This document shows, one piece after another, positions 1-7,040 of a stretch of DNA of 9,821 nt. Numbering within the stretch: position 1 is the stretch's first letter; each line of letters begins with the position of its first letter. Source of the stretch: a virus (taxonomy: Duplodnaviria; Heunggongvirae; Uroviricota; Caudoviricetes); IMG/VR virus record IMGVR_UViG_2802429224_000016; one strand, given 5' to 3'. A program made the translations under genes and the position numbers. Under the pieces are notes generated by a model, which was given only the letters and a program-made list of their open reading frames with translations, ran no database searches and had not been told where the DNA came from.

Positions 1-1047
1 GTCGCGGGATTTGATGTATTGCTGGTTTCTTTCCCGTTCATCCAGCAGTGCCAGCACGGTTTCTGGTCCGGCCAGAAATTTGAAGGCGTTGAGCGCATCA
101 ATATCCACACCGTAATCTTTAAGTTCCTGTTCACTTAACAAATCATCATCAGATGGCAACATTAACAGGCGTTCCATTGCTGGAATTGCACGTTCCGCCA
201 CCTCACGCAGTGCCTGGTAATTAATTTCGCTCACTGGTTGCCTCCTTTGCGAATCTGTTCCTCTGCGAATCTGTTCCTCCCATTCTTCAAGGGATTTCTC
301 CGCATATTCACCGGACAGGCCATCAATCGGGTACGGTTCATTAGCCAACTCTTCTTTCGCTGACAGAATCATGCGCGTAACGTCGAAAACTTCACGCAAA
401 GACTTATTGATAAATCCGTGATTGAACGCAGCAGCAAGACGGCTGGCGGTATAGTTAATCCCCTCGTTGCGTGCTTCCGCCCGAACTTCAGCCAGGAAAG
501 CGTCGGTGGCTGGGGTTTCGACATTAGGTCGAAGCTCATAATCACAAACTCTTTCAATCCATGGTGATACTCTGTCGCATTTCCTCTTCTTGCGTTCACC
601 GACCTTGGTTGCCTGCTGAATAATTACCCCCCAGCAAATGCTTTCGACCTCTTCGCTCCATCCATCGCAAGCATCGCCTCTATAGTCGTCAATTGCAGCC
701 TCAGCAGCAGCGATAGCCTCCTCAGCAGTTTTGTGACACTCGAAACTAAATTCAGAGCCATATGAGAAATACATAGCCCCGGCCTTAAGCCCCGCATTCT
801 CCGCCGCCAGCGCCGAAAACTTCTCGTGTGCCAACTTAACAGCCGAATCAGCCTGCTTAATTGACTCAATCGCTTTCTGCTGGTCTTCGGCCAGCGCATT
901 AGCACGCACCAGTTGCACTTCCAGTTGCGTTGCCAAATCGCTGATCAGCTTTGCCACACTACGCATATCAACGGCACCACATTCTGCTTTCAGTTCCGAA
1001 GCCATCTCATGCCCGGCGGAAACTAACCCTTTGATATTACTTTCCAT
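1..1047 (-). CDS. Long ORF (349 codons in window, no stop before the left edge): unknown N-terminal part fused in frame to an Ea22-like module
   Basis: Manual translation of the minus strand from ATG 1047-1045 (GAGGG RBS 7 nt upstream) is open through position 1: MESNIKGLVSAGHEMASELKAE...EWEEQIRRGTDSQRRQPVSEINYQALREVAERAIP...PETVLALLDERERNQQYIKSRD. It is absent from the supplied ORF track, presumably because no stop lies in the window. The segment after internal GTG 234-232 (perfect AGGAGG 246-241, 6-nt spacer) matches the N-terminal signature I recall for prophage Ead/Ea22-like proteins (YQALRE...A, then ...TVLALLDER...). Track ORFs 369..599(-) and 624..905(-) are other frames inside this ORF. 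Confidence 0.6.
   Translation of the reverse strand, partial: MESNIKGLVSAGHEMASELKAECGAVDMRSVAKLISDLATQLEVQLVRANALAEDQQKAIESIKQADSAVKLAHEKFSALAAENAGLKAGAMYFSYGSEFSFECHKTAEEAIAAAEAAIDDYRGDACDGWSEEVESICWGVIIQQATKVGERKKRKCDRVSPWIERVCDYELRPNVETPATDAFLAEVRAEARNEGINYTASRLAAAFNHGFINKSLREVFDVTRMILSAKEELANEPYPIDGLSGEYAEKSLEEWEEQIRRGTDSQRRQPVSEINYQALREVAERAIPAMERLLMLPSDDDLLSEQELKDYGVDIDALNAFKFLAGPETVLALLDERERNQQYIKSRD
248..279. repeat. Perfect 16-bp tandem direct duplication (TGCGAATCTGTTCCTC x2, plus strand) inside the long ORF
   Basis: Positions 248-263 and 264-279 are identical. The unit is not a multiple of 3, so it alters the frame relative to a single-copy state. Confidence 0.9.
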
Positions 1048-1108
1048 CTTTACCCTCGCTTATCCACATAACTTATTGATTACATTGATAACTAAAAAGA
1101 TCGTCGAT

Positions 1109-1570: not shown

Positions 1571-2356
1571 TTACTTGATAAATCCTGCCGCCTTTCCCCG
1601 CCTGTATTCCTCCATCAGCCACTGCGCCGGTGTTATTCCCCCAAGGGTGGCGGCGTTAGGCATGCACCCGAAACTTCGCCCTGGTGGATGGTAAACGTCT
1701 CTCCCTGTGTCCGGAGGTGTACTCATGGGCTCTGGCTTTGCCTGTATGCTGATCACCGGATCGGGTATCTGCTGTCCGGAAGCCACCTTTTTCGCCCAAT
1801 CATCGAGCAGCCTGCGCGCGTGTTTCTCAACCTCAATCTCGCTAAGCTGGCGCTGATACATTGCACGGCGGGTATCACATACGACCCAGTACATAACCGG
1901 ATGTCGCCACGGGAATCTTTCGGGACCACCAGGATATAAACTTTTTTCCTTGCTGTACCGATGAAACTCCGCCATCACATCGTCAATGGTGACGCCAAGA
2001 ACCATCTTGCTGTCTTTACACCACTTGATGAATTGCCCTGGCGACGGCCAGAACGGAGATTCACTGGCGCGGGCGTGGCGCATACCAGCAGAAACCTGTT
2101 CACGGGTTCGGATCCCACTTTCAGCAAACGCAGCAATCCACTGCTGTTTTGCAGCGACTTCCTGCTCTGGCGTCTTCAGGTTGGTTACCACTGCCGCCGG
2201 AAACAGTTGTTTCAGCTGTTTGAAAAGGGCATCAACAAGCCTCTCTGCTGACATGTTCACCACATTGTCATTGTTGACGTACTGATGCTCATAACCTGAC
2301 ATGCGAGAAAGGGCTTCTCCGTCACGGTTTTGTATCGCGGTAAAAACGTTGTTCAC
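1571..2356 (-). CDS. Lambda P-like replication protein (replicative helicase loader)
   Basis: Conserved block WIAAFAESGIRTREQVSAGMRHARASESPFWPSPGQFIKWC resembles lambda P (recalled as RRQWVLAFRENGITTMEQVNAGMRVARRQNRPFLPSPGQFVAWC). Preferred start is GTG 2356-2354, with GGAGGA 6 nt upstream and a GTGA overlap with the O-like stop. The track's ATG 2371 is an in-frame alternative without an RBS. Confidence 0.85.
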   Translation of the reverse strand: MNNVFTAIQNRDGEALSRMSGYEHQYVNNDNVVNMSAERLVDALFKQLKQLFPAAVVTNLKTPEQEVAAKQQWIAAFAESGIRTREQVSAGMRHARASESPFWPSPGQFIKWCKDSKMVLGVTIDDVMAEFHRYSKEKSLYPGGPERFPWRHPVMYWVVCDTRRAMYQRQLSEIEVEKHARRLLDDWAKKVASGQQIPDPVISIQAKPEPMSTPPDTGRDVYHPPGRSFGCMPNAATLGGITPAQWLMEEYRRGKAAGFIK

Positions 2357-3168
2357 AAGAAATCCTCCCATGCTTCAGGGCTGTTCCAGTGCGGAACGTT
2401 GTTATCAGGTAATGTTGATTGCTTCTGTCTGCTAATCTGCAGCCGCCTTGCCAGCTTCTGCTCCCACTGTGCCTGATGGTATGCCTTACCCTCAGCCATC
2501 CAGTAAATTCTGAACTCTGCAAGTTCCTGTGCCGTTGGCAGACTGTCCAGGTAGATCCCCTGCAATGAGCTTTTCCGAAGAAAGTCATCTGATGGCTGCC
2601 ATTGTTCATGCATGACAAATTTGCCTAATTGCCCTGGCCCACGAGGAGGAACAAAGTTATTCATCACGGCGTTGTTTGCGCCGGGGTCATGAGGCACAGA
2701 ATCCCCGCTTTTTGTCCTGCTCTCCCTCTCTTGGTTAAATGACTGGTTATATGACTGGTTCTGGATCCCGTTTTTGGGATCATTCAACATCCCGTTTTTG
2801 GGATCATTCAACATCCCGTTTTTGGGTATATTCCCGTTTTCGGTAACATTACCGTTTTCGGGTTCATTACCCCCCTCCCGGTTGCCTTTAATGTTCCCGT
2901 TTTTGGTTATATTAAGAGAGAAAACCCGTACTCTTTTCGTCGCCCCCTTTCTCTCTCCGGTATCTGAAATAAGCCCCATTTTCATGAGCGATATAAGCCC
3001 GGCCTGCACGGTTTTTTTATTCAGGCAAGTGTCTTTAACGAGGCGTTCTATGCTGGGGTAGCAGAGGTTATATTCATCGGCTCTGTCAGCCATCGAGAGC
3101 AGTATGAGCTTTAATGACGAGCTACCTGGATCTGTCTCCCAGGCCCAATCTGTTGCATGTCTGCTCAT
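2353..3168 (-). CDS. Lambda O-like replication initiator (N-terminal HTH, iteron-encoded low-complexity linker, DnaT/O-like C-terminal domain)
   Basis: 271-aa ORF with ATG 3168 and GGAG RBS. The central peptide repeats (NDPKNGML x2, NG periodicity) are encoded by the iteron array. The C-terminal block QWQPSDDFLRKSSLQGIYLDSLPTAQELAEFRIYWMAEGKAYHQAQWEQKLARRLQ resembles the C-terminal domain of lambdoid O/DnaT-like proteins. Immediately upstream of the P-like gene. Confidence 0.8.
   Translation of the reverse strand: MSRHATDWAWETDPGSSSLKLILLSMADRADEYNLCYPSIERLVKDTCLNKKTVQAGLISLMKMGLISDTGERKGATKRVRVFSLNITKNGNIKGNREGGNEPENGNVTENGNIPKNGMLNDPKNGMLNDPKNGIQNQSYNQSFNQERESRTKSGDSVPHDPGANNAVMNNFVPPRGPGQLGKFVMHEQWQPSDDFLRKSSLQGIYLDSLPTAQELAEFRIYWMAEGKAYHQAQWEQKLARRLQISRQKQSTLPDNNVPHWNSPEAWEDFL
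2765..2910. repeat. Origin-of-replication iteron array inside the O-like gene
   Basis: Two identical 24-bp units ATCCCGTTTTTGGGATCATTCAAC (2765-2788, 2789-2812), a third variant (2813-2836) and degenerate copies with core CCCGTTTT(T)NGG (about 2833, 2852, 2896). The core ATCCC-N6-GGGAT has internal dyad symmetry, as lambda iterons do. Confidence 0.7.
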
Positions 3169-3183
3169 GATTAATCTCCGCTA

Positions 3184-3384
3184 TCAGCTTGAATGTTGTG
3201 GGGTGGAATTAATCATGATCTGCTTAATCTCTGCCCTGATGCGACGGTTTGATTCCATGGTGCACTCAACACAGTGTCCGTTGTAAACCCAGCGTTCACT
3301 GTCATGTCCGTGCTTACATGGTTTTCCGGTGTAGTAGCGTTTAAGTCCGCGCTTTGCGGCATCAATACGTGTAATGATTTCCAT
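3184..3384 (-). CDS. Small Cys/His-rich (putative zinc-binding) protein, 66 aa, at the cII-equivalent position
   Basis: ATG 3384 gives MEIITRIDAAKRGLKRYYTGKPCKHGHDSERWVYNGHCVECTMESNRR... with a C-x-H-x-H...H-C-x2-C arrangement. The track ORF extends to 3447, but that start is a TTG and the added N-terminus is a hydrophobic run. No family recognised. Confidence 0.45.
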   Translation of the reverse strand: MEIITRIDAAKRGLKRYYTGKPCKHGHDSERWVYNGHCVECTMESNRRIRAEIKQIMINSTPQHSS

Positions 3385-3464
3385 GGTAAGCCCTGTTATT
3401 AGTATTGGGATTACGGTTATTTTGTGCTGACACAAAAAAAAGATCAACCAGATTTGGTTTTTTA

Positions 3465-3480: not shown

Positions 3481-3513
3481 AATAGATATGAAAAGACCGC
3501 CACCCGGCGGTCT
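3481..3513 (-). terminator. Rho-independent terminator downstream of the Cro-like gene (tR1-like position)
   Basis: Minus-strand RNA AGACCGCC-GGGU-GGCGGUCU (plus 3494-3513; 8-bp GC-rich stem, 4-nt loop) followed by UUUUCAUAUCUAUU. On the plus strand it is preceded by A's rather than followed by T's, so it is unidirectional. Confidence 0.6.
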
Positions 3514-3534: not shown

Positions 3535-3765
3535 TCATGAGTAGAAGAAGTATGCCAGTTCTGCTTTTGAGCGCAGCCATTGTCTTGTTTTACAGGCTTT
3601 AAAAAGCCCATTCATCAATACTTTACCTGGCATTTTGCGCTTACCTGTTAAGTGAGTCTGGATATAGTGACTCGTCGTTCCGGCTTCCTGTGCGAAGGCT
3701 TCACGCTCATCCGGAGTAAGTGCAAGCCAGTGCTTTTTGAAATCGAAATGTCCGTTATCGCTCAT
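3535..3765 (-). CDS. Cro-like small HTH regulator (76 aa)
   Basis: Divergent from the repressor gene. The segment AGTTSHYIQTHLTGKRKMPGKVL resembles the lambda Cro recognition region (recalled as GVYQSAINKAIHAGRKIFL). Position and orientation match cro in a lambdoid immunity region. Confidence 0.65.
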   Translation of the reverse strand: MSDNGHFDFKKHWLALTPDEREAFAQEAGTTSHYIQTHLTGKRKMPGKVLMNGLFKACKTRQWLRSKAELAYFFYS

Positions 3766-3790: not shown

Positions 3791-3819
3791 ATAATAAATA
3801 TTCACCCATAAGGTAACAA
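3791..3819 (-). promoter_or_regulatory. pR-like promoter driving the Cro-like gene
   Basis: On the minus strand: -35 TTGTTA (plus 3819-3814), 17-bp spacer, -10 TATTAT (plus 3796-3791). Operator site 3802-3816 sits inside the spacer/-35. Confidence 0.45.
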
Positions 3820-3919: not shown

Positions 3920-4504
3920 ATGAAAAGTATCCAGGACGTCCGCAGGCAAAATCTCAACGACTTGATCGACCGTGAATTCAATGGTGTTCAGACGCGGATG
4001 GCAGAAAAACTTGGAACTCAGGCAAATCTGGTAAACCGCTGGGCTCTTGGCAAGAAGGTTATCGGCGACCAGGTTGCGCGAAAAATTGAAGCTGCCGCCA
4101 ATAAACCCCGTAACTGGCTTGATATCGATCGCTCGCTTTCTCAGGAAGGTTTTCAGCCTGTCGGCCCGAGTGATATAGGTCAGCTGGCTGCTCACAACCT
4201 GGAACGCTGGATGAGCGAAAGCCGCGACCTTTCAACGCAGGGAAAACTACACCGCGCATCCGGCGTCGCCCAGGTGACAATCAGCCGCCTGTTAAACAAT
4301 GAGGTCAGCGTTTCCATTTCCACCCTGGAGAATGTTGCATCTGCATTCGGGCGTCATGGCTATGAATTACTGATTCACCCGCACGACCCTGCGACTATCA
4401 ACTATGACCGCTCGCGCTACGCATTGTTACCCGAAACCGAGAAAGCAAAGATCGAAAGTTACATTGAATTTGTCATCAACCAGAACGAAAAAAACAAACA
4501 ATAA
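3920..4504 (+). CDS. Putative prophage repressor with tandem HTH_XRE-like domains, no S24/LexA-type peptidase domain (194 aa)
   Basis: First HTH around QTRMAEKLGTQANLVNRWALGKKVIGDQVARKIEAA, second around LHRASGVAQVTISRLLNNEVSVSISTLENVASAFG. No Ser/Lys autocleavage motif seen in the C-terminus. cI-equivalent position: divergent from cro, flanked by both operator clusters. No SD upstream of ATG 3920, so a leaderless transcript is possible. Confidence 0.7.
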   Translation: MKSIQDVRRQNLNDLIDREFNGVQTRMAEKLGTQANLVNRWALGKKVIGDQVARKIEAAANKPRNWLDIDRSLSQEGFQPVGPSDIGQLAAHNLERWMSESRDLSTQGKLHRASGVAQVTISRLLNNEVSVSISTLENVASAFGRHGYELLIHPHDPATINYDRSRYALLPETEKAKIESYIEFVINQNEKNKQ

Positions 4505-4812: not shown

Positions 4813-5112
4813 ATGAACGTTAATCAGCAGAAAAATCTTCAAAAAATCATGCTGGCATTCGACAAGGACTACCGCCTGTCAGAACAGCTATATGACCGAC
4901 AAGTTGAACTGATTGAGAGCATCCGACTTCATCAACTGTCCTCAACTTTCGACGTTGTAACAGGCAAAGGCGTTCGTCAGGAAGTACTGGAGGCTGCTAA
5001 AGACAGCCCTGAGTTCGAAGAACTGATGGATGCCTATCGGCGAGAGGCAATGGCAATTATCGCCCGCTGGGATCTGGCGGATCAGCTTGATGGACAGAGG
5101 GACGCGGCATGA
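4813..5112 (+). CDS. Hypothetical protein (99 aa), translationally coupled to the downstream exonuclease gene
   Basis: ATG 4813 with GGAGGG (4801-4806) 6 nt upstream; the track's ATG 4798 lacks an RBS. Stop overlaps the exonuclease start (ATGA at 5109-5112). No family recognised. Confidence 0.55.
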   Translation: MNVNQQKNLQKIMLAFDKDYRLSEQLYDRQVELIESIRLHQLSSTFDVVTGKGVRQEVLEAAKDSPEFEELMDAYRREAMAIIARWDLADQLDGQRDAA

Positions 5113-6008
5113 TGCGGAACGCTGGAATCATGGATAGAACAAAATACATCGGAGGAAGCGATGTTGCAGGGATTCTTGGAATTAGCCCATGGCGCACCCC
5201 GCTTGAGGTTTATCTGGATAAGGTCCAGCCACGTGTCAAACCAGTAGACCCAAGCAAGCAGAAAGTTTTCACGCGTGGCCAGCGTATGGAGCCATACGTA
5301 ATAGACCTGCTTTCTGAGGAAACAGGGATGGAAATCGTTCATCGCGGAAACCGCTATATCCACCGTGATTACGATTTTATTGCAGCTGAGATCGATGCAG
5401 AAGCAGCGTCAGGCGAGAACATTGAGATCAAAACAGTTAGTCCGTTCAAAGCCAAAGAATGGGGAGAAATCCAGACAGATGCAATTCCTGTGCATTACAC
5501 GGCCCAGGCCATGCACGGGTTGATGGTTACAAACAAACAGGTATGCGTTTTCGGTGTGCTTATCGGTGGCGACGACTTCCGAATCTATCGGGTTGAGCGT
5601 GATGAAGAAACTATCCAGGCGATCTTAGAAAAAGAAATCGCTTTCTGGGACCGAGTGAAAAATCTTAACCCGCCGGAAGCTACCAGCGTAAGCGATGTAT
5701 CGCTGATGTTTGAGAAAGATGCCGGGACAAGTATCGAGGCTGACGGAAAGGCACTCGCACTATTCAACGATCTACGAGACATGAAGTCACGCAGAAAATC
5801 ACTGGAAGAAGAAATAGCTATATCAGAAGAGAAGCTGAAGATGTACATGCAAGAGCACTCAGTCCTGACCCTGGACGGAAAGCCGCTCTGCACATGGAAA
5901 TCTCAGATCAGCAACAGATTCGACCAGAAGCTATTCCAGTCAGTACACCCTGAGTTATTCGAAAAATTCAAAACAACAACGACACAACGCGTCTTCAGAA
6001 TGAAGTAA
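5109..6008 (+). CDS. YqaJ-type viral recombinase-associated exonuclease (lambda-Exo superfamily, PD-(D/E)xK)
   Basis: N-terminal motif IGGSDVAGILGISPWRTPLEVY is typical of YqaJ-family phage exonucleases. Sits immediately upstream of recT. GAGGG RBS before ATG 5109. Confidence 0.85.
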   Translation: MMRNAGIMDRTKYIGGSDVAGILGISPWRTPLEVYLDKVQPRVKPVDPSKQKVFTRGQRMEPYVIDLLSEETGMEIVHRGNRYIHRDYDFIAAEIDAEAASGENIEIKTVSPFKAKEWGEIQTDAIPVHYTAQAMHGLMVTNKQVCVFGVLIGGDDFRIYRVERDEETIQAILEKEIAFWDRVKNLNPPEATSVSDVSLMFEKDAGTSIEADGKALALFNDLRDMKSRRKSLEEEIAISEEKLKMYMQEHSVLTLDGKPLCTWKSQISNRFDQKLFQSVHPELFEKFKTTTTQRVFRMK

Positions 6009-6017
6009 GGAGAAAAA

Positions 6018-7040
6018 ATGTCTATCAATGCACTTAAGGCAGCGGCTACCGGTAACCAAGTTGCACATCATAATGAGAAACCAACAACTCTGGCCGGACT
6101 TCTGGCAGACCCAAAAATTAAAGCTCAGATGGCTTTGGCACTTCCAAAGCACATGACAGCAGACCGTCTGGCGCGCATAGCAACCACAGAGATCCGAAAG
6201 GTTCCAAAACTTGCATCATGCGACCAAGCCAGCTTCCTGGGGGCAATTATGCAATGTGCCCAATTGGGTCTTGAACCAGGCGGAGCTCTTGGACACGCTT
6301 ACCTGATACCGTTCGACAAACGCCAGAAAGTAAATGGAAGATGGGAAACCGTATCTACAGAAGCACAGCTGATTATCGGCTATCGCGGAATGATTGACCT
6401 TGCCCGCCGCTCTGGGCAGATCCTGAGTATCTCGGCTCGTACCGTACATACAAACGACAAATTCAGCTACTCATACGGCCTGGAAGAAACGCTCGAGCAT
6501 TTACCTTGCGAAACAGGTGACCGCGGAGAATTAACGCACGTTTACGCCGTTGCACGACTGAAAGATGGCGGAGTCCAATTTGAAGTTATGAGCCGGGCAG
6601 ACGTTGAGAAAGTTCGTGCACTGAGCAAAGCCGGTAGCAGTGGCCCATGGGTTGATCACTTCGATGAGATGGCTAAAAAAACAGTAATTCGCCGACTGTT
6701 CAAATATCTTCCTGTTTCTATTGAAATGCAGAAGGCTGTTGTTATGGATGAGCGCGCTGAAGCTGGACTTAGCCAAGATAACGCAGCTGTTATCACTGGT
6801 GAATATTCCGTAGTTGACGATGAGCGTCAACACCTGTCGCCAATTTCAGATTCAGAACGAGAAGAAGCTCGAGAATATATCATCGCGATACTTAATAGCC
6901 TGGATCCATCTGCTGAAGATGCAAAAACGATGTTCAAGCGCGCTGAAAATGAAATTAACACCATGGCTGACAAGCTCGGTGATGAATATCACCAAAAATT
7001 CATGATGACGCTTAACGATATGCGTCCAGAATTCGAGTAA
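6018..7040 (+). CDS. recT: RecT-family single-strand annealing recombinase
   Basis: Strong resemblance to Rac-prophage RecT as recalled: MTADRLARIATTEIRKVP, LIIGYRGMIDLARRSGQI, THVYAVARLKDGGVQFEVM, GPWVDHFDEMAKKTVIRRLFKYLPVSIE. AAGGAG RBS before ATG 6018. Confidence 0.9.
   Translation: MSINALKAAATGNQVAHHNEKPTTLAGLLADPKIKAQMALALPKHMTADRLARIATTEIRKVPKLASCDQASFLGAIMQCAQLGLEPGGALGHAYLIPFDKRQKVNGRWETVSTEAQLIIGYRGMIDLARRSGQILSISARTVHTNDKFSYSYGLEETLEHLPCETGDRGELTHVYAVARLKDGGVQFEVMSRADVEKVRALSKAGSSGPWVDHFDEMAKKTVIRRLFKYLPVSIEMQKAVVMDERAEAGLSQDNAAVITGEYSVVDDERQHLSPISDSEREEAREYIIAILNSLDPSAEDAKTMFKRAENEINTMADKLGDEYHQKFMMTLNDMRPEFE

What the first reader, a model, noticed from the sequence alone, without database searches (positions are those of the whole stretch)
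2765..2910. Replication origin embedded in the O-like gene, encoding the protein's own linker
About six iterons with core CCCGTTTT(T)NGG, two of them identical 24-mers, each carrying the internal dyad ATCCC-N6-GGGAT, lie in the middle of the initiator gene. They are translated as an Asn/Gly/Pro-rich repeat (NDPKNGML x2) linking the DNA-binding and C-terminal domains. This matches the lambda ori-within-O arrangement but with a different iteron sequence, implying a distinct initiator specificity. No clear AT-rich unwinding element flanks the array.
Basis: partly seen in the sequence, partly recalled or inferred. Interest (0 to 1): 0.4.

Follow-up and report, generated by a model that had tools for sequence, protein, structure and literature searches.

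The report
Phage replication origin inside initiator gene
The repeats are real and are very probably the replication origin of a phiV10-like E. coli prophage, sitting inside the gene for its own initiator protein as in phages lambda and phi80; this is a new example of a well-known arrangement, not a new kind of system.

Summary
Six copies of CCGTTTTYGG lie at 2768-2906 and nowhere else in the window (0 of 200 shuffles reach the count). They sit in the linker of a 271-aa initiator gene (2353-3168, minus strand).

The window is a phiV10/epsilon15-like prophage found in 424 of 5,426 complete E. coli genomes. The initiator is not a Pfam lambda-O protein. It has an HTH_36 winged-helix N-domain and a DnaT-like C-domain, and a lambda-P-like loader gene follows.

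In 80 diverse genomes retrieved with the N-domain alone, the window-derived motif CCRAAAACGG is about 390-fold enriched in the same linker. It is always on the sense strand and is read in all three frames, so selection acts on the DNA. The motif follows the N-domain, not the C-domain. The same 10-mer occurs in phage phi80 only twice, both inside its annotated gp15-binding origin sites.

A second conserved element follows the last iteron: three 12/13-mers with a GAAYC core (window 2725-2761), then a purine tract. This is the position of lambda's AT-rich region, but it is only 61% AT here.

Verdict: origin interpretation supported by comparison, not by experiment. It is a new member of a known kind, of modest interest.

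The parts
2353..3168 (-). Replication initiator gene (271 aa): HTH_36 winged-helix N-domain, iteron-encoded linker, DnaT-like C-domain
   Evidence: ORF. Pfam HTH_36 E=1.8e-10 at aa 18-67 and DnaT E=1.1e-15 at aa 184-252. phrog_1032 'replication initiation protein' E=1.5e-108. 97-99% identical to the phiV10 p43 gene.
2914..3168 (-). Coding region of the N-terminal winged-helix domain (aa 1-85), the inferred iteron-binding domain
   Evidence: The conserved block up to GERKG-x6-V-x2-L aligns across Vibrio, Edwardsiella, Acinetobacter and enteric homologues. All 72 family members match HTH_36.
2894..2909 (-). Iteron 1 (gene sense TAACCAAAAACGGGAA), distal, separated from the rest by a 45-nt step
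2849..2864 (-). Iteron 2 (sense AACCCGAAAACGGTAA); its core is identical to the phi80 ori sites
2831..2846 (-). Iteron 3 (sense TTACCGAAAACGGGAA); differs at one position from the phi80 site TTCCCGAAAACGGGAA
2813..2828 (-). Iteron 4 (sense TACCCAAAAACGGGAT)
2789..2804 (-). Iteron 5 (sense ATCCCAAAAACGGGAT), perfect 5+5 dyad arms, part of the identical 24-mer
2765..2780 (-). Iteron 6 (sense ATCCCAAAAACGGGAT), perfect dyad arms, proximal to the second element
   Evidence: Across the family the terminal iteron is the most symmetric: 44 of 72 are perfect, against 25 of 205 for the other iterons.
2725..2761 (-). Second conserved element: three tandem 12/13-mers (sense GAACCAGTCATAT / AACCAGTCATTT / AACCAAGAGAGG). 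Candidate DNA-unwinding or single-strand-binding element
   Evidence: TRF 12-mer x2.4 at 2732-2760. Unit coordinates. 45 of 63 distinct family sequences have 3 [GT]AAYC units at 10-13 nt spacing, against about 0.8% of control sites; 51 of 103 spacings are not multiples of 3. phiV10 has one extra unit.
2702..2732 (-). Purine tract (sense AAGAGAGGGAGAGCAGGACAAAAAGCGGGGA, 90% purine), overlapping the end of the second element
   Evidence: Strong strand asymmetry in the composition profile. It occupies the position of the A-rich tracts in relatives and in lambda.
2374..2631 (-). Coding region of the DnaT-like C-terminal domain (aa 180-265)
   Evidence: phmmer against PDB: E. coli/Klebsiella DnaT C-domain (9ZBT, 6AEP, 4OU6, 4OU7, 2RU8), E down to 6.7e-21.
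1571..2356 (-). Lambda-P-like helicase-loader gene. It probably starts at GTG 2356, overlapping the initiator stop as GTGA and preceded by GGGAGGA. The longest ORF starts at ATG 2371
   Evidence: Pfam Phage_lambda_P E=6.2e-57. phrog_109 'P-like helicase loader' E=3.5e-92. Junction sequence. phiV10 annotation shows a 4-nt overlap.
3791..3819 (-). Promoter-like site upstream of the cro-like gene; a possible pR equivalent that would transcribe towards the initiator gene (weak evidence)
   Evidence: Consensus scan, 9 of 12 matches; the number of such sites in the region is not above the shuffle expectation. Gene order is repressor / cro-like / cII-position gene / initiator / P.

Best explanation
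Positions 2702-2909 are the vegetative replication origin of a phiV10-like (Uetakevirus) temperate phage, built inside the coding sequence of its own initiator.

Proposed mechanism, by analogy with lambda and phi80:
1. Dimers of the initiator bind the six 16-bp iterons through the N-terminal winged-helix domain and form an O-some-like complex. The two perfectly symmetric iterons at 2765-2804 lie next to the site of opening.
2. The duplex opens in the adjacent element of three 12/13-mers and the purine tract (2702-2761).
3. The DnaT-like C-domain holds the single strand and/or docks the P-like loader carrying host DnaB.
4. The helicase is loaded and theta replication starts.

Shown here:
- The repeats are real and non-random.
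- They are conserved at the DNA level, independent of reading frame.
- They always accompany the N-domain family.
- Their core is identical to that of the phi80 origin sites.
- A second element is conserved beside them.
- The domain and neighbour identities are as stated.

Inferred: binding, opening at the second element, the role of the C-domain, and origin activity itself.
For: Non-randomness: 6 exact core hits, all in the array, and 0 of 200 shuffles reach the count. TRF scores are 124 and 70.

Context: the order repressor / cro-like / initiator / P-like loader is the lambdoid replication operon.

Independent comparative test: 80 loci were retrieved from one-genome-per-species contigs with the 87-aa N-domain only, at 40-87% identity. 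They span Enterobacterales, Vibrio, Pseudoalteromonas, Acinetobacter, Burkholderiales, Sphingomonadales and Desulfovibrio.
- The window-derived CCRAAAACGG gives 124 sense-strand hits in the linker zone (28 kb in total).
- It gives 7 hits elsewhere on both strands (624 kb), about 390-fold enrichment.
- It is read in all three frames, 89/25/10. Examples are PKNG, TQKR and DPKT.

Module swap: all 72 full-length proteins have HTH_36. Only 7 have the DnaT C-domain; 5 have Phg_2220_C, 2 have DnaA_N, and GF-2 has a lambda-O-like C-terminal region plus P. SPN1S has the DnaT C-domain with another N-domain; it has no such motif and instead carries GTCCGC/GCGGAC clusters.

phi80: the only two CCRAAAACGG matches in its 46-kb genome lie in the annotated gp15-binding origin sites.

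Architecture:
- The last iteron is the most symmetric.
- It is followed by three GAAYC 12/13-mers, half of them at spacings that are not multiples of 3.
- An AT peak 0.17 above each locus mean follows at +20 to +39 nt.
- This order matches lambda's: iterons, then the AT-rich region, in the direction of transcription (PMC3349717; PMC7466680).

Linker tolerance: 5-9 iterons in 78 close relatives, all in frame.

C-domain: about 50% identical to the structurally solved ssDNA-binding DnaT C-domain.
Against: There are no experimental data for phiV10-type phages. No paper in the searchable library mentions an origin or iterons for phiV10 or epsilon15.

The candidate unwinding region is only 61% AT, and it is not the least stable stretch even locally. 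The other flank, 2906-2925, is less stable (z = 2.5).

The N-domain cannot be shown to be homologous to lambda O beyond the generic winged-helix fold. hhalign gives 18% probability, and Phage_rep_O hits are weak in 7 of 72 members. Transfer of the lambda mechanism is therefore by analogy.

The basis of the phi80 'gp15' site annotation could not be checked.

The single-sequence structure model was unusable, with pLDDT 38.
Confidence: 0.8

Rival explanations
1. The array is an initiator-binding site cluster used for regulation (autorepression, titration or handcuffing, or exclusion of related phages) rather than the place where replication starts. The true origin or opening site lies elsewhere.
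For: The comparative evidence shows DNA-level selection and linkage to the N-domain but cannot separate 'origin' from 'binding array'. Lambda's cloned iterons themselves cause a replication-inhibition phenotype (PMC3349717). No strong AT-rich DUE is adjacent.
Against: No other iteron copies or arrays are found in the 9.8-kb window, which includes the whole early region. The conserved 12/13-mer triplet and A-rich tract sit directly next to the most symmetric iteron, which is classical origin architecture. The homologous position in lambda and phi80 is the origin. A regulatory role could also coexist with origin function.
Confidence: 0.1
2. The repeats are only a slippage-generated, low-complexity Asn/Gly/Pro/Lys protein linker with no function as DNA.
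For: The array is in frame, and its copy number varies by whole repeat units among close relatives. The peptide is low in complexity.
Against: The same 10-mer is conserved across orders and classes of Proteobacteria while being translated in three different frames. It is strictly strand-specific and about 390-fold enriched. It has dyad symmetry that a peptide does not need. In GF-2 the peptide changes from PKNG to PKIG while the dyad is kept. It matches the phi80 origin sites, where the reading frame gives FPKTGK, a different peptide.
Confidence: 0.03
3. The conserved DNA between the N- and C-modules persists mainly as a recombination 'linker' sequence that lets phages swap initiator modules (boundary homology in mosaic genomes), not as an origin.
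For: The N-domain and array are joined to at least four different C-terminal domains, with the junction just after the conserved second element.
Against: Boundary homology explains why exchange happens there, not why the motif is repeated 4-11 times with dyad symmetry. It also does not explain why it is maintained at 40% protein identity, or why the repeat unit equals a known initiator-binding site.
Confidence: 0.05

Closest known systems
Phage phi80 origin within gene 15 (the O analogue), with gene 14 (the P analogue) downstream
   Same: - The origin lies inside the initiator gene, between the N- and C-terminal parts, and a P-like gene follows.
- The iterons are 15-16 bp with the same core: phi80 TTCCCGAAAACGGGAA and TTCCCGAAAACGGTAG, against window TTACCGAAAACGGGAA and AACCCGAAAACGGTAA.
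- The window-derived 10-mer hits phi80 only at its annotated sites.
- AT content after the last iteron is similarly modest (66% against 61%).
   Different: - The phi80 gp15 N-domain is Pfam Phage_rep_O (E=6e-25); the window protein is HTH_36 and does not match it.
- The phi80 C-terminus is lambda-O-like; here it is DnaT-like.
- phi80 has 4 sites at 20-21 bp spacing; here there are 6 at 18, 24 and 45 bp.
- phi80 lacks the three GAAYC 12/13-mers. It has GAAC x2 at 6-nt spacing.
Phage lambda ori (ITN1-4 plus a 38-bp AT-rich region inside gene O) and the O/P initiation pathway
   Same: - The arrangement and orientation are the same: iterons, then an A-rich or asymmetric region, in the direction of transcription.
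- The array is translated as the interdomain linker.
- The half-site arms ATCCC/GGGAT are identical.
- A P-family loader gene follows.
- The iterons nearest the unwinding side are the best sites (PMC3349717; PMC7466680).
   Different: - Lambda iterons are 18-19 bp (ATCCCTCAAAACGAGGGA), with the arms 3 bp further apart.
- Lambda's AT-rich region is 79% AT, against 61% here.
- The initiator domains belong to different Pfam families.
Shiga-toxin phage origins (933W, P27) with six iterons
   Same: Both have six iterons inside the initiator gene. Extra iterons add extra residues to the protein linker. Iteron number varies among relatives (PMC7466680).
   Different: Those are true lambda-O proteins and lambda-type 18-bp iterons.
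E. coli DnaT (primosomal protein I, replication restart)
   Same: Residues 180-265 are about 50% identical to the solved ssDNA-binding C-domain of DnaT. This is why the gene is annotated 'primosomal protein I' or 'DnaT-like'.
   Different: The first 180 residues are unrelated to DnaT's N-terminal part. The phage protein has a sequence-specific winged-helix domain and an iteron-encoded linker. It is an origin initiator, not a DnaT orthologue.
Iteron plasmid origins (RK2, F, R6K, pPS10) with Rep-bound iterons next to a DUE containing 13-mer repeats
   Same: Direct repeats bound by a winged-helix initiator lie next to a short block of about 13-nt repeats that are opened and, in those plasmids, bound as single strands by Rep (PMC4081077, listed; not read in detail).
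   Different: There is no Rep_3 domain. The origin is inside the initiator ORF rather than upstream of it. The 12/13-mers here are GAAYC-based and not very AT-rich.

Membership tests
Lambdoid 'origin inside the initiator gene' (ori-lambda / ori-phi80 type) | Four or more direct repeats with internal dyad symmetry inside the initiator ORF, between its N- and C-terminal domains | tested here: met
   Six 16-bp repeats at 2765-2909 lie between HTH_36 (aa 18-67) and DnaT (aa 184-252). Two have perfect 5+5 arms.
Lambdoid 'origin inside the initiator gene' (ori-lambda / ori-phi80 type) | AT-rich unwinding region directly after the last iteron in the direction of transcription | tested here: inconclusive
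   The region is 61% AT here, against 79% in lambda and 66% in phi80. Its stability z-score is only about 2. A conserved triplet of 12/13-mers plus a purine or A-rich tract does occupy this position family-wide, with AT 0.17 above each locus mean.
Lambdoid 'origin inside the initiator gene' (ori-lambda / ori-phi80 type) | P-type helicase loader gene immediately downstream, in a cro/cII/O/P-like operon | tested here: met
   Phage_lambda_P E=6.2e-57, with the start overlapping the initiator stop. Gene order as in the phiV10 annotation.
Lambdoid 'origin inside the initiator gene' (ori-lambda / ori-phi80 type) | The initiator N-domain binds the iterons, and the fragment replicates autonomously when O and P are supplied | not testable with these tools
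   Support is indirect only. The motif accompanies the N-domain across 72 proteins with different C-domains and is absent where the N-domain differs.
Lambda O protein family (Pfam PF04492 Phage_rep_O) | N-terminal domain matches the Phage_rep_O profile | tested here: not met
   No hit at E<=0.01 for the window protein, and none even at E<=5. Seven of 72 relatives give weak hits (best 0.018), no better than generic winged-helix families. hhalign against lambda+phi80 gives 18% probability over 27 columns.
Lambda O protein family (Pfam PF04492 Phage_rep_O) | Lambda-O-type C-terminal (P-binding) domain | tested here: not met
   The C-terminus is DnaT-like. GF-2, a relative with the same N-domain, has a C-terminal sequence that visibly resembles lambda O's on inspection of the translations; no alignment score was computed.
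HTH_36-type phage replication initiators (Pfam PF13730; phrog_1032) | N-terminal HTH_36 winged helix, with a whole-length match to the PHROG 'replication initiation protein' family | tested here: met
   HTH_36 E=1.8e-10, above the curated cut-off. phrog_1032 E=1.5e-108 over aa 1-269.
DnaT / primosomal protein I | DnaT C-terminal ssDNA-binding domain | tested here: met
   PF17948 E=1.1e-15. PDB DnaT chains, E down to 6.7e-21 over aa 180-265.
DnaT / primosomal protein I | DnaT N-terminal half, giving full-length orthology | tested here: not met
   PDB alignments cover only aa 180-265 of the query and residues 85-170 of DnaT. The N-terminus is HTH_36.
Iteron plasmid Rep (Rep_3: RepA/RepE/pi) replicons | Rep_3 WH1-WH2 initiator with iterons outside the rep ORF | tested here: not met
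   No Rep_3 hit in any of the 72 members at E<=0.001, and none among the 25 most frequent families at E<=5. The iterons lie inside the ORF.

The most novel reading that the evidence does not exclude
HTH_36-type initiators across Proteobacteria may share one ancient two-part origin written into their own coding sequence. The first part is CCNAAAACGG iterons ending in a symmetric site. The second is three sequence-specific GAAYC 12/13-mers that would act as a recognised single-strand or unwinding element rather than a merely AT-rich one.

The iteron code is shared with phi80, whose initiator belongs to a different Pfam family. Origin specificity classes might therefore cross initiator families, for example by cross-binding or cross-interference between phiV10-like and phi80-like replicons.
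Probability: 0.3. Interest if true: 0.5.

Novelty: new member of a known kind. Interest (0 to 1): 0.3.

Why it matters
- **Annotation.** It gives a concrete, testable origin (2702-2909) for phiV10-like prophages, which are present in about 8% of complete E. coli genomes. In those genomes the gene is annotated only as 'DnaT-like' or 'primosomal protein I', and no origin is annotated.
- **Origin prediction.** A simple DNA signature marks origins in many unannotated prophages from Enterobacterales to Acinetobacter. The signature is sense-strand CCRAAAACGG repeats after an HTH_36 domain, followed by three GAAYC 12/13-mers.
- **Dual coding.** It is a clean natural example of one DNA motif read in three frames.
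- **Limits.** It does not change the picture of how lambdoid phages replicate.

Tried and rejected
1. **Per-site diversity among equal-length alleles.** Rejected, because alleles of equal length differ by compensating repeat gains and losses and are out of register.
2. **AlphaFold single-sequence model.** Mean pLDDT was 38, so it was unusable and no fold search was run. An alignment-based model was not possible with the GTDB sequences, and I ran no further search on it.
3. **Diversifying the Phage_rep_O set.** The viral-contig scan returned only 99-100% lambda copies, so the profile comparison rests on lambda plus phi80 only.
4. **Rac prophage oriJ/YdaU as a possible characterised relative.** K-12 YdaU is DUF1376, not this family.
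5. **Small 'plasmids' with the gene as possible proof of autonomous replication.** The 8.6-kb Klebsiella record is linear and looks like a prophage fragment. The 41-kb E. coli records look like excised phage. Neither is informative.
6. **DnaA boxes.** There is one perfect box at 1060-1068, which is at chance expectation.
7. **Residue-to-iteron covariation.** Considered and not pursued. The variant core (CCAACAAYGG) is confined to one Acinetobacter clade, so any correlation would be phylogenetic.
8. **Literature.** Searches on the phiV10/epsilon15 origin and on the motif itself found nothing. The phi80 genome paper is not held.
9. **Programmed frameshifting at CCCAAAA.** Considered and dismissed. 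The motif's phase differs between loci and is not the X XXY YYZ phase here.
Full report
**What is there**

The window is the early region of a phiV10/epsilon15-like (Uetakevirus) temperate phage of E. coli.
- The 816-nt gene at 2353-3168 (minus strand) is 97-99% identical to phiV10, EC.W1-9, phiv142-3 and related phages.
- It occurs in 424 of 5,426 complete E. coli genomes, almost always once and on the chromosome.
- Gene order, read on the minus strand, is: cro-like gene (3535-3765), small gene (3184-3447), initiator (2353-3168), lambda-P-like loader (1571-2356), DUF1064 gene. The repressor gene (3920-4504, plus strand) is transcribed divergently from it.
- The phiV10 GenBank records annotate the gene as 'putative primosomal protein' or 'replication initiation protein'. 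They mark no origin.

**The observation**

- Six copies start at 2765, 2789, 2813, 2831, 2849 and 2894. The first two are identical 24-mers.
- The core CCGTTTTYGG occurs six times exactly, only in the array. With one mismatch allowed there are 7 hits against 1.28 expected, and no shuffle out of 200 reaches 7.
- The dyad ATCCC-N6-GGGAT is perfect in the two 24-mers and degenerate in the other four copies.
- On the coding strand the array reads ITKNGN...EPENGNVTENGNIPKNGMLNDPKNGMLNDPKNGIQ, aa 87-136.
- It lies between Pfam HTH_36 (aa 18-67) and the DnaT DNA-binding domain (aa 184-252).

**What the protein is**

It is an initiator by function and position, but not a member of the lambda O family.
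- Neither the window protein nor its relatives match Phage_rep_O convincingly.
- A profile comparison with lambda O plus phi80 gp15 aligns only the helix-turn-helix helices, at 18% probability.
- The C-terminal 85 residues are about 50% identical to the solved ssDNA-binding C-domain of host DnaT (PDB 4OU6, 6AEP, 9ZBT; E down to 6.7e-21). This explains the misleading 'primosomal protein I' annotations.
- The next gene is a clear lambda-P homologue (E=6.2e-57; phrog_109).

**Is the repeat a DNA element or just a repetitive peptide?**

This was the key question, and related sequences answer it.

tblastn showed that the N-domain plus linker recurs in Vibrio phage H20, Edwardsiella phage GF-2, Acinetobacter phage AP22 and the PPompW prophages. 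Each carries the same motif directly after the winged helix.
- H20 has CCGAAAACGGTACTTTGAATAGGC x4.6.
- GF-2 has AATGATCCCAAAATTGGGATTTTG x2.8.

I then retrieved 80 loci from one-genome-per-species contigs, using only the 87-residue N-domain as query, so the linker played no part in retrieval. In these loci:
- The window-derived 10-mer CCRAAAACGG occurs 124 times on the sense strand in the linker zone (28 kb summed).
- It occurs 7 times elsewhere on either strand (624 kb), about 390-fold enrichment.
- It is read in all three frames, 89/25/10.
- A slightly looser pattern gives 190 against 14.

The same DNA is translated as PKNG, TQKR or DPKT in different phages. In GF-2 the peptide changes to PKIG while the dyad is kept. 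Selection is therefore on the DNA.

**Which part of the protein goes with the repeat?**

All 72 distinct full-length proteins have HTH_36. Only 7 have the DnaT C-domain; others have Phg_2220_C, DnaA_N or unassigned C-termini. GF-2 has a lambda-O-like C-terminal region followed by a P gene, and AP22 is followed by a DnaB-like helicase gene.

Conversely, Salmonella phage SPN1S has the DnaT-like C-domain with a different N-domain. It has no CCRAAAACGG at all and instead carries two clusters of GTCCGC/GCGGAC. The motif thus follows the N-terminal winged helix, as expected of its binding site.

**Link to characterised origins**

The phi80 GenBank record annotates four gp15-binding sites inside gene 15.
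- Their sequences are TTCCCGAAAACGGGAA and TTCCCGAAAACGGTAG, plus two variants.
- These differ from window iterons 3 and 2 (TTACCGAAAACGGGAA, AACCCGAAAACGGTAA) only in flanking bases.
- The window-derived 10-mer matches the 46-kb phi80 genome exactly twice, both times in those sites.

Lambda's iterons share the ATCCC/GGGAT arms and the AAAACG centre but are 3 bp longer. I could not check the experimental basis of the phi80 annotation. [quoted passage not shown]

Directly after the last iteron, in the direction of transcription, the window has GAACCAGTCATAT / AACCAGTCATTT / AACCAAGAGAGG (2725-2761). A 90%-purine tract follows (2702-2732).

The same feature is present across the family.
- 45 of 63 distinct sequences have three [GT]AAYC units at 10-13 nt spacing, against about 0.8% of control sites.
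- 51 of 103 spacings are not multiples of three, so this too is a DNA repeat and not a peptide repeat.
- In Acinetobacter it runs into TAAAAATAAAAA.
- Averaged over 70 loci, AT content peaks 0.17 above each locus mean at +20 to +39 nt.
- The iteron next to it is the most symmetric of each array: 44 of 72 perfect, against 25 of 205 for the others.

This fits lambda, where the iterons nearest the AT-rich region suffice for unwinding (cited in PMC7466680).

In the window itself the region is only 61% AT (lambda 79%, phi80 66%, window mean 52%) and only mildly unstable (z about 2). The opposite flank at 2906-2925 is slightly less stable. I therefore assign the unwinding role to 2702-2761 by position and conservation, with moderate confidence.

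**Variation**

Among 78 close relatives (99-100% N-domain identity) iteron number is 5-9, and 6 in 59 of them. The range arises through in-frame gain and loss of 24-mer units (1-5 copies) and 18-mer units. phiV10 has an extra 12-mer, and the copy in the BP9 record lacks one 24-mer. The linker peptide tolerates these changes, as in Stx phages where two extra iterons add 13 residues (PMC7466680).

**Mechanism and confidence**

Most likely (0.8) this is the phage's theta origin:
1. N-domain dimers bind the six iterons.
2. The duplex opens in the adjacent 12/13-mer and purine region.
3. The DnaT-like domain engages single-stranded DNA and/or the P-DnaB complex.
4. The helicase is loaded.

Binding, opening, the role of the C-domain and origin activity are inferred, not shown.

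Rivals:
- A purely regulatory binding array with the origin elsewhere (0.1).
- A recombination boundary sequence (0.05).
- A mere repetitive peptide (0.03), which the frame analysis contradicts.

**Novelty**

The arrangement is textbook for lambdoid phages. What is new is modest.
- No origin is annotated in the records examined, nor described in the literature I could search, for a common E. coli prophage type.
- It is carried by a non-O initiator with a DnaT-like domain.
- A two-part origin signature is shared by HTH_36 initiators across Proteobacteria, and its iteron core is shared with phi80.

I rate it a new member of a known kind, with interest 0.3.

Noticed in passing
L007 (Salmonella phage SPN1S) 1048-1863: The epsilon15-type initiator has the same DnaT-like C-domain but a different N-domain. 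It carries two clusters of GTCCGC/GCGGAC hexamers (gene nt 55-106 and 334-375). This is probably a different origin, also embedded in its own initiator gene.
   Followed up: partly
alignment A3 (loci L090-L169): Of 72 HTH_36-plus-iteron initiators, 2 carry a DnaA_N domain (DnaA domain I) and 5 carry Phg_2220_C at the C-terminus, instead of the DnaT-like domain. This suggests alternative ways of recruiting the helicase.
   Followed up: no
window 2353-3168, compared with NZ_CP079771.1 and NZ_CP079768.1: Two 41,027-bp records deposited as E. coli plasmids (strains HL15 and SF10) carry the same gene. The same strains also have it on the chromosome. These are probably excised circular phage genomes rather than plasmids.
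   Followed up: no
L002 (Escherichia phage BP9, 133437-137228) and PP350014.1: A 138-kb Vequintavirus record and a 115-kb 'phage PH444' record contain this phiV10-like replication module. The records may be chimeric assemblies.
   Followed up: no
window 1060-1068: There is a perfect DnaA box, TTATCCACA, downstream of the DUF1064 gene. One match is what chance predicts (1.05 expected).
   Followed up: partly
window 243-279: Tandem 16-mer TCCTCTGCGAATCTGT x2.3, 95% match. Its context was not examined.
   Followed up: no
window 3494-3513 and 3791-3819 (minus strand): A strong terminator-like hairpin (8 pairs, 6 of them G-C) lies between the cro-like gene and the next gene. A promoter-like site lies upstream of the cro-like gene. 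Transcription reaching the initiator gene may therefore need read-through or antitermination. phiV10 annotates a terminator at the corresponding place.
   Followed up: no
window 2775-2794 and 2799-2818 (plus strand): The scan reports 'terminator-like' hairpins here. They are formed by GGGAT of one iteron and ATCCC of the next, followed by the T-run of the iteron. They are antisense to the gene and a by-product of the dyads.
   Followed up: partly
window 5109-7040, compared with L001 5769-6828: The RecE-like exonuclease (5109-6008) and RecT (6018-7040) are separate ORFs here. phiV10 annotates a single RecE-RecT fusion protein, p37.
   Followed up: no
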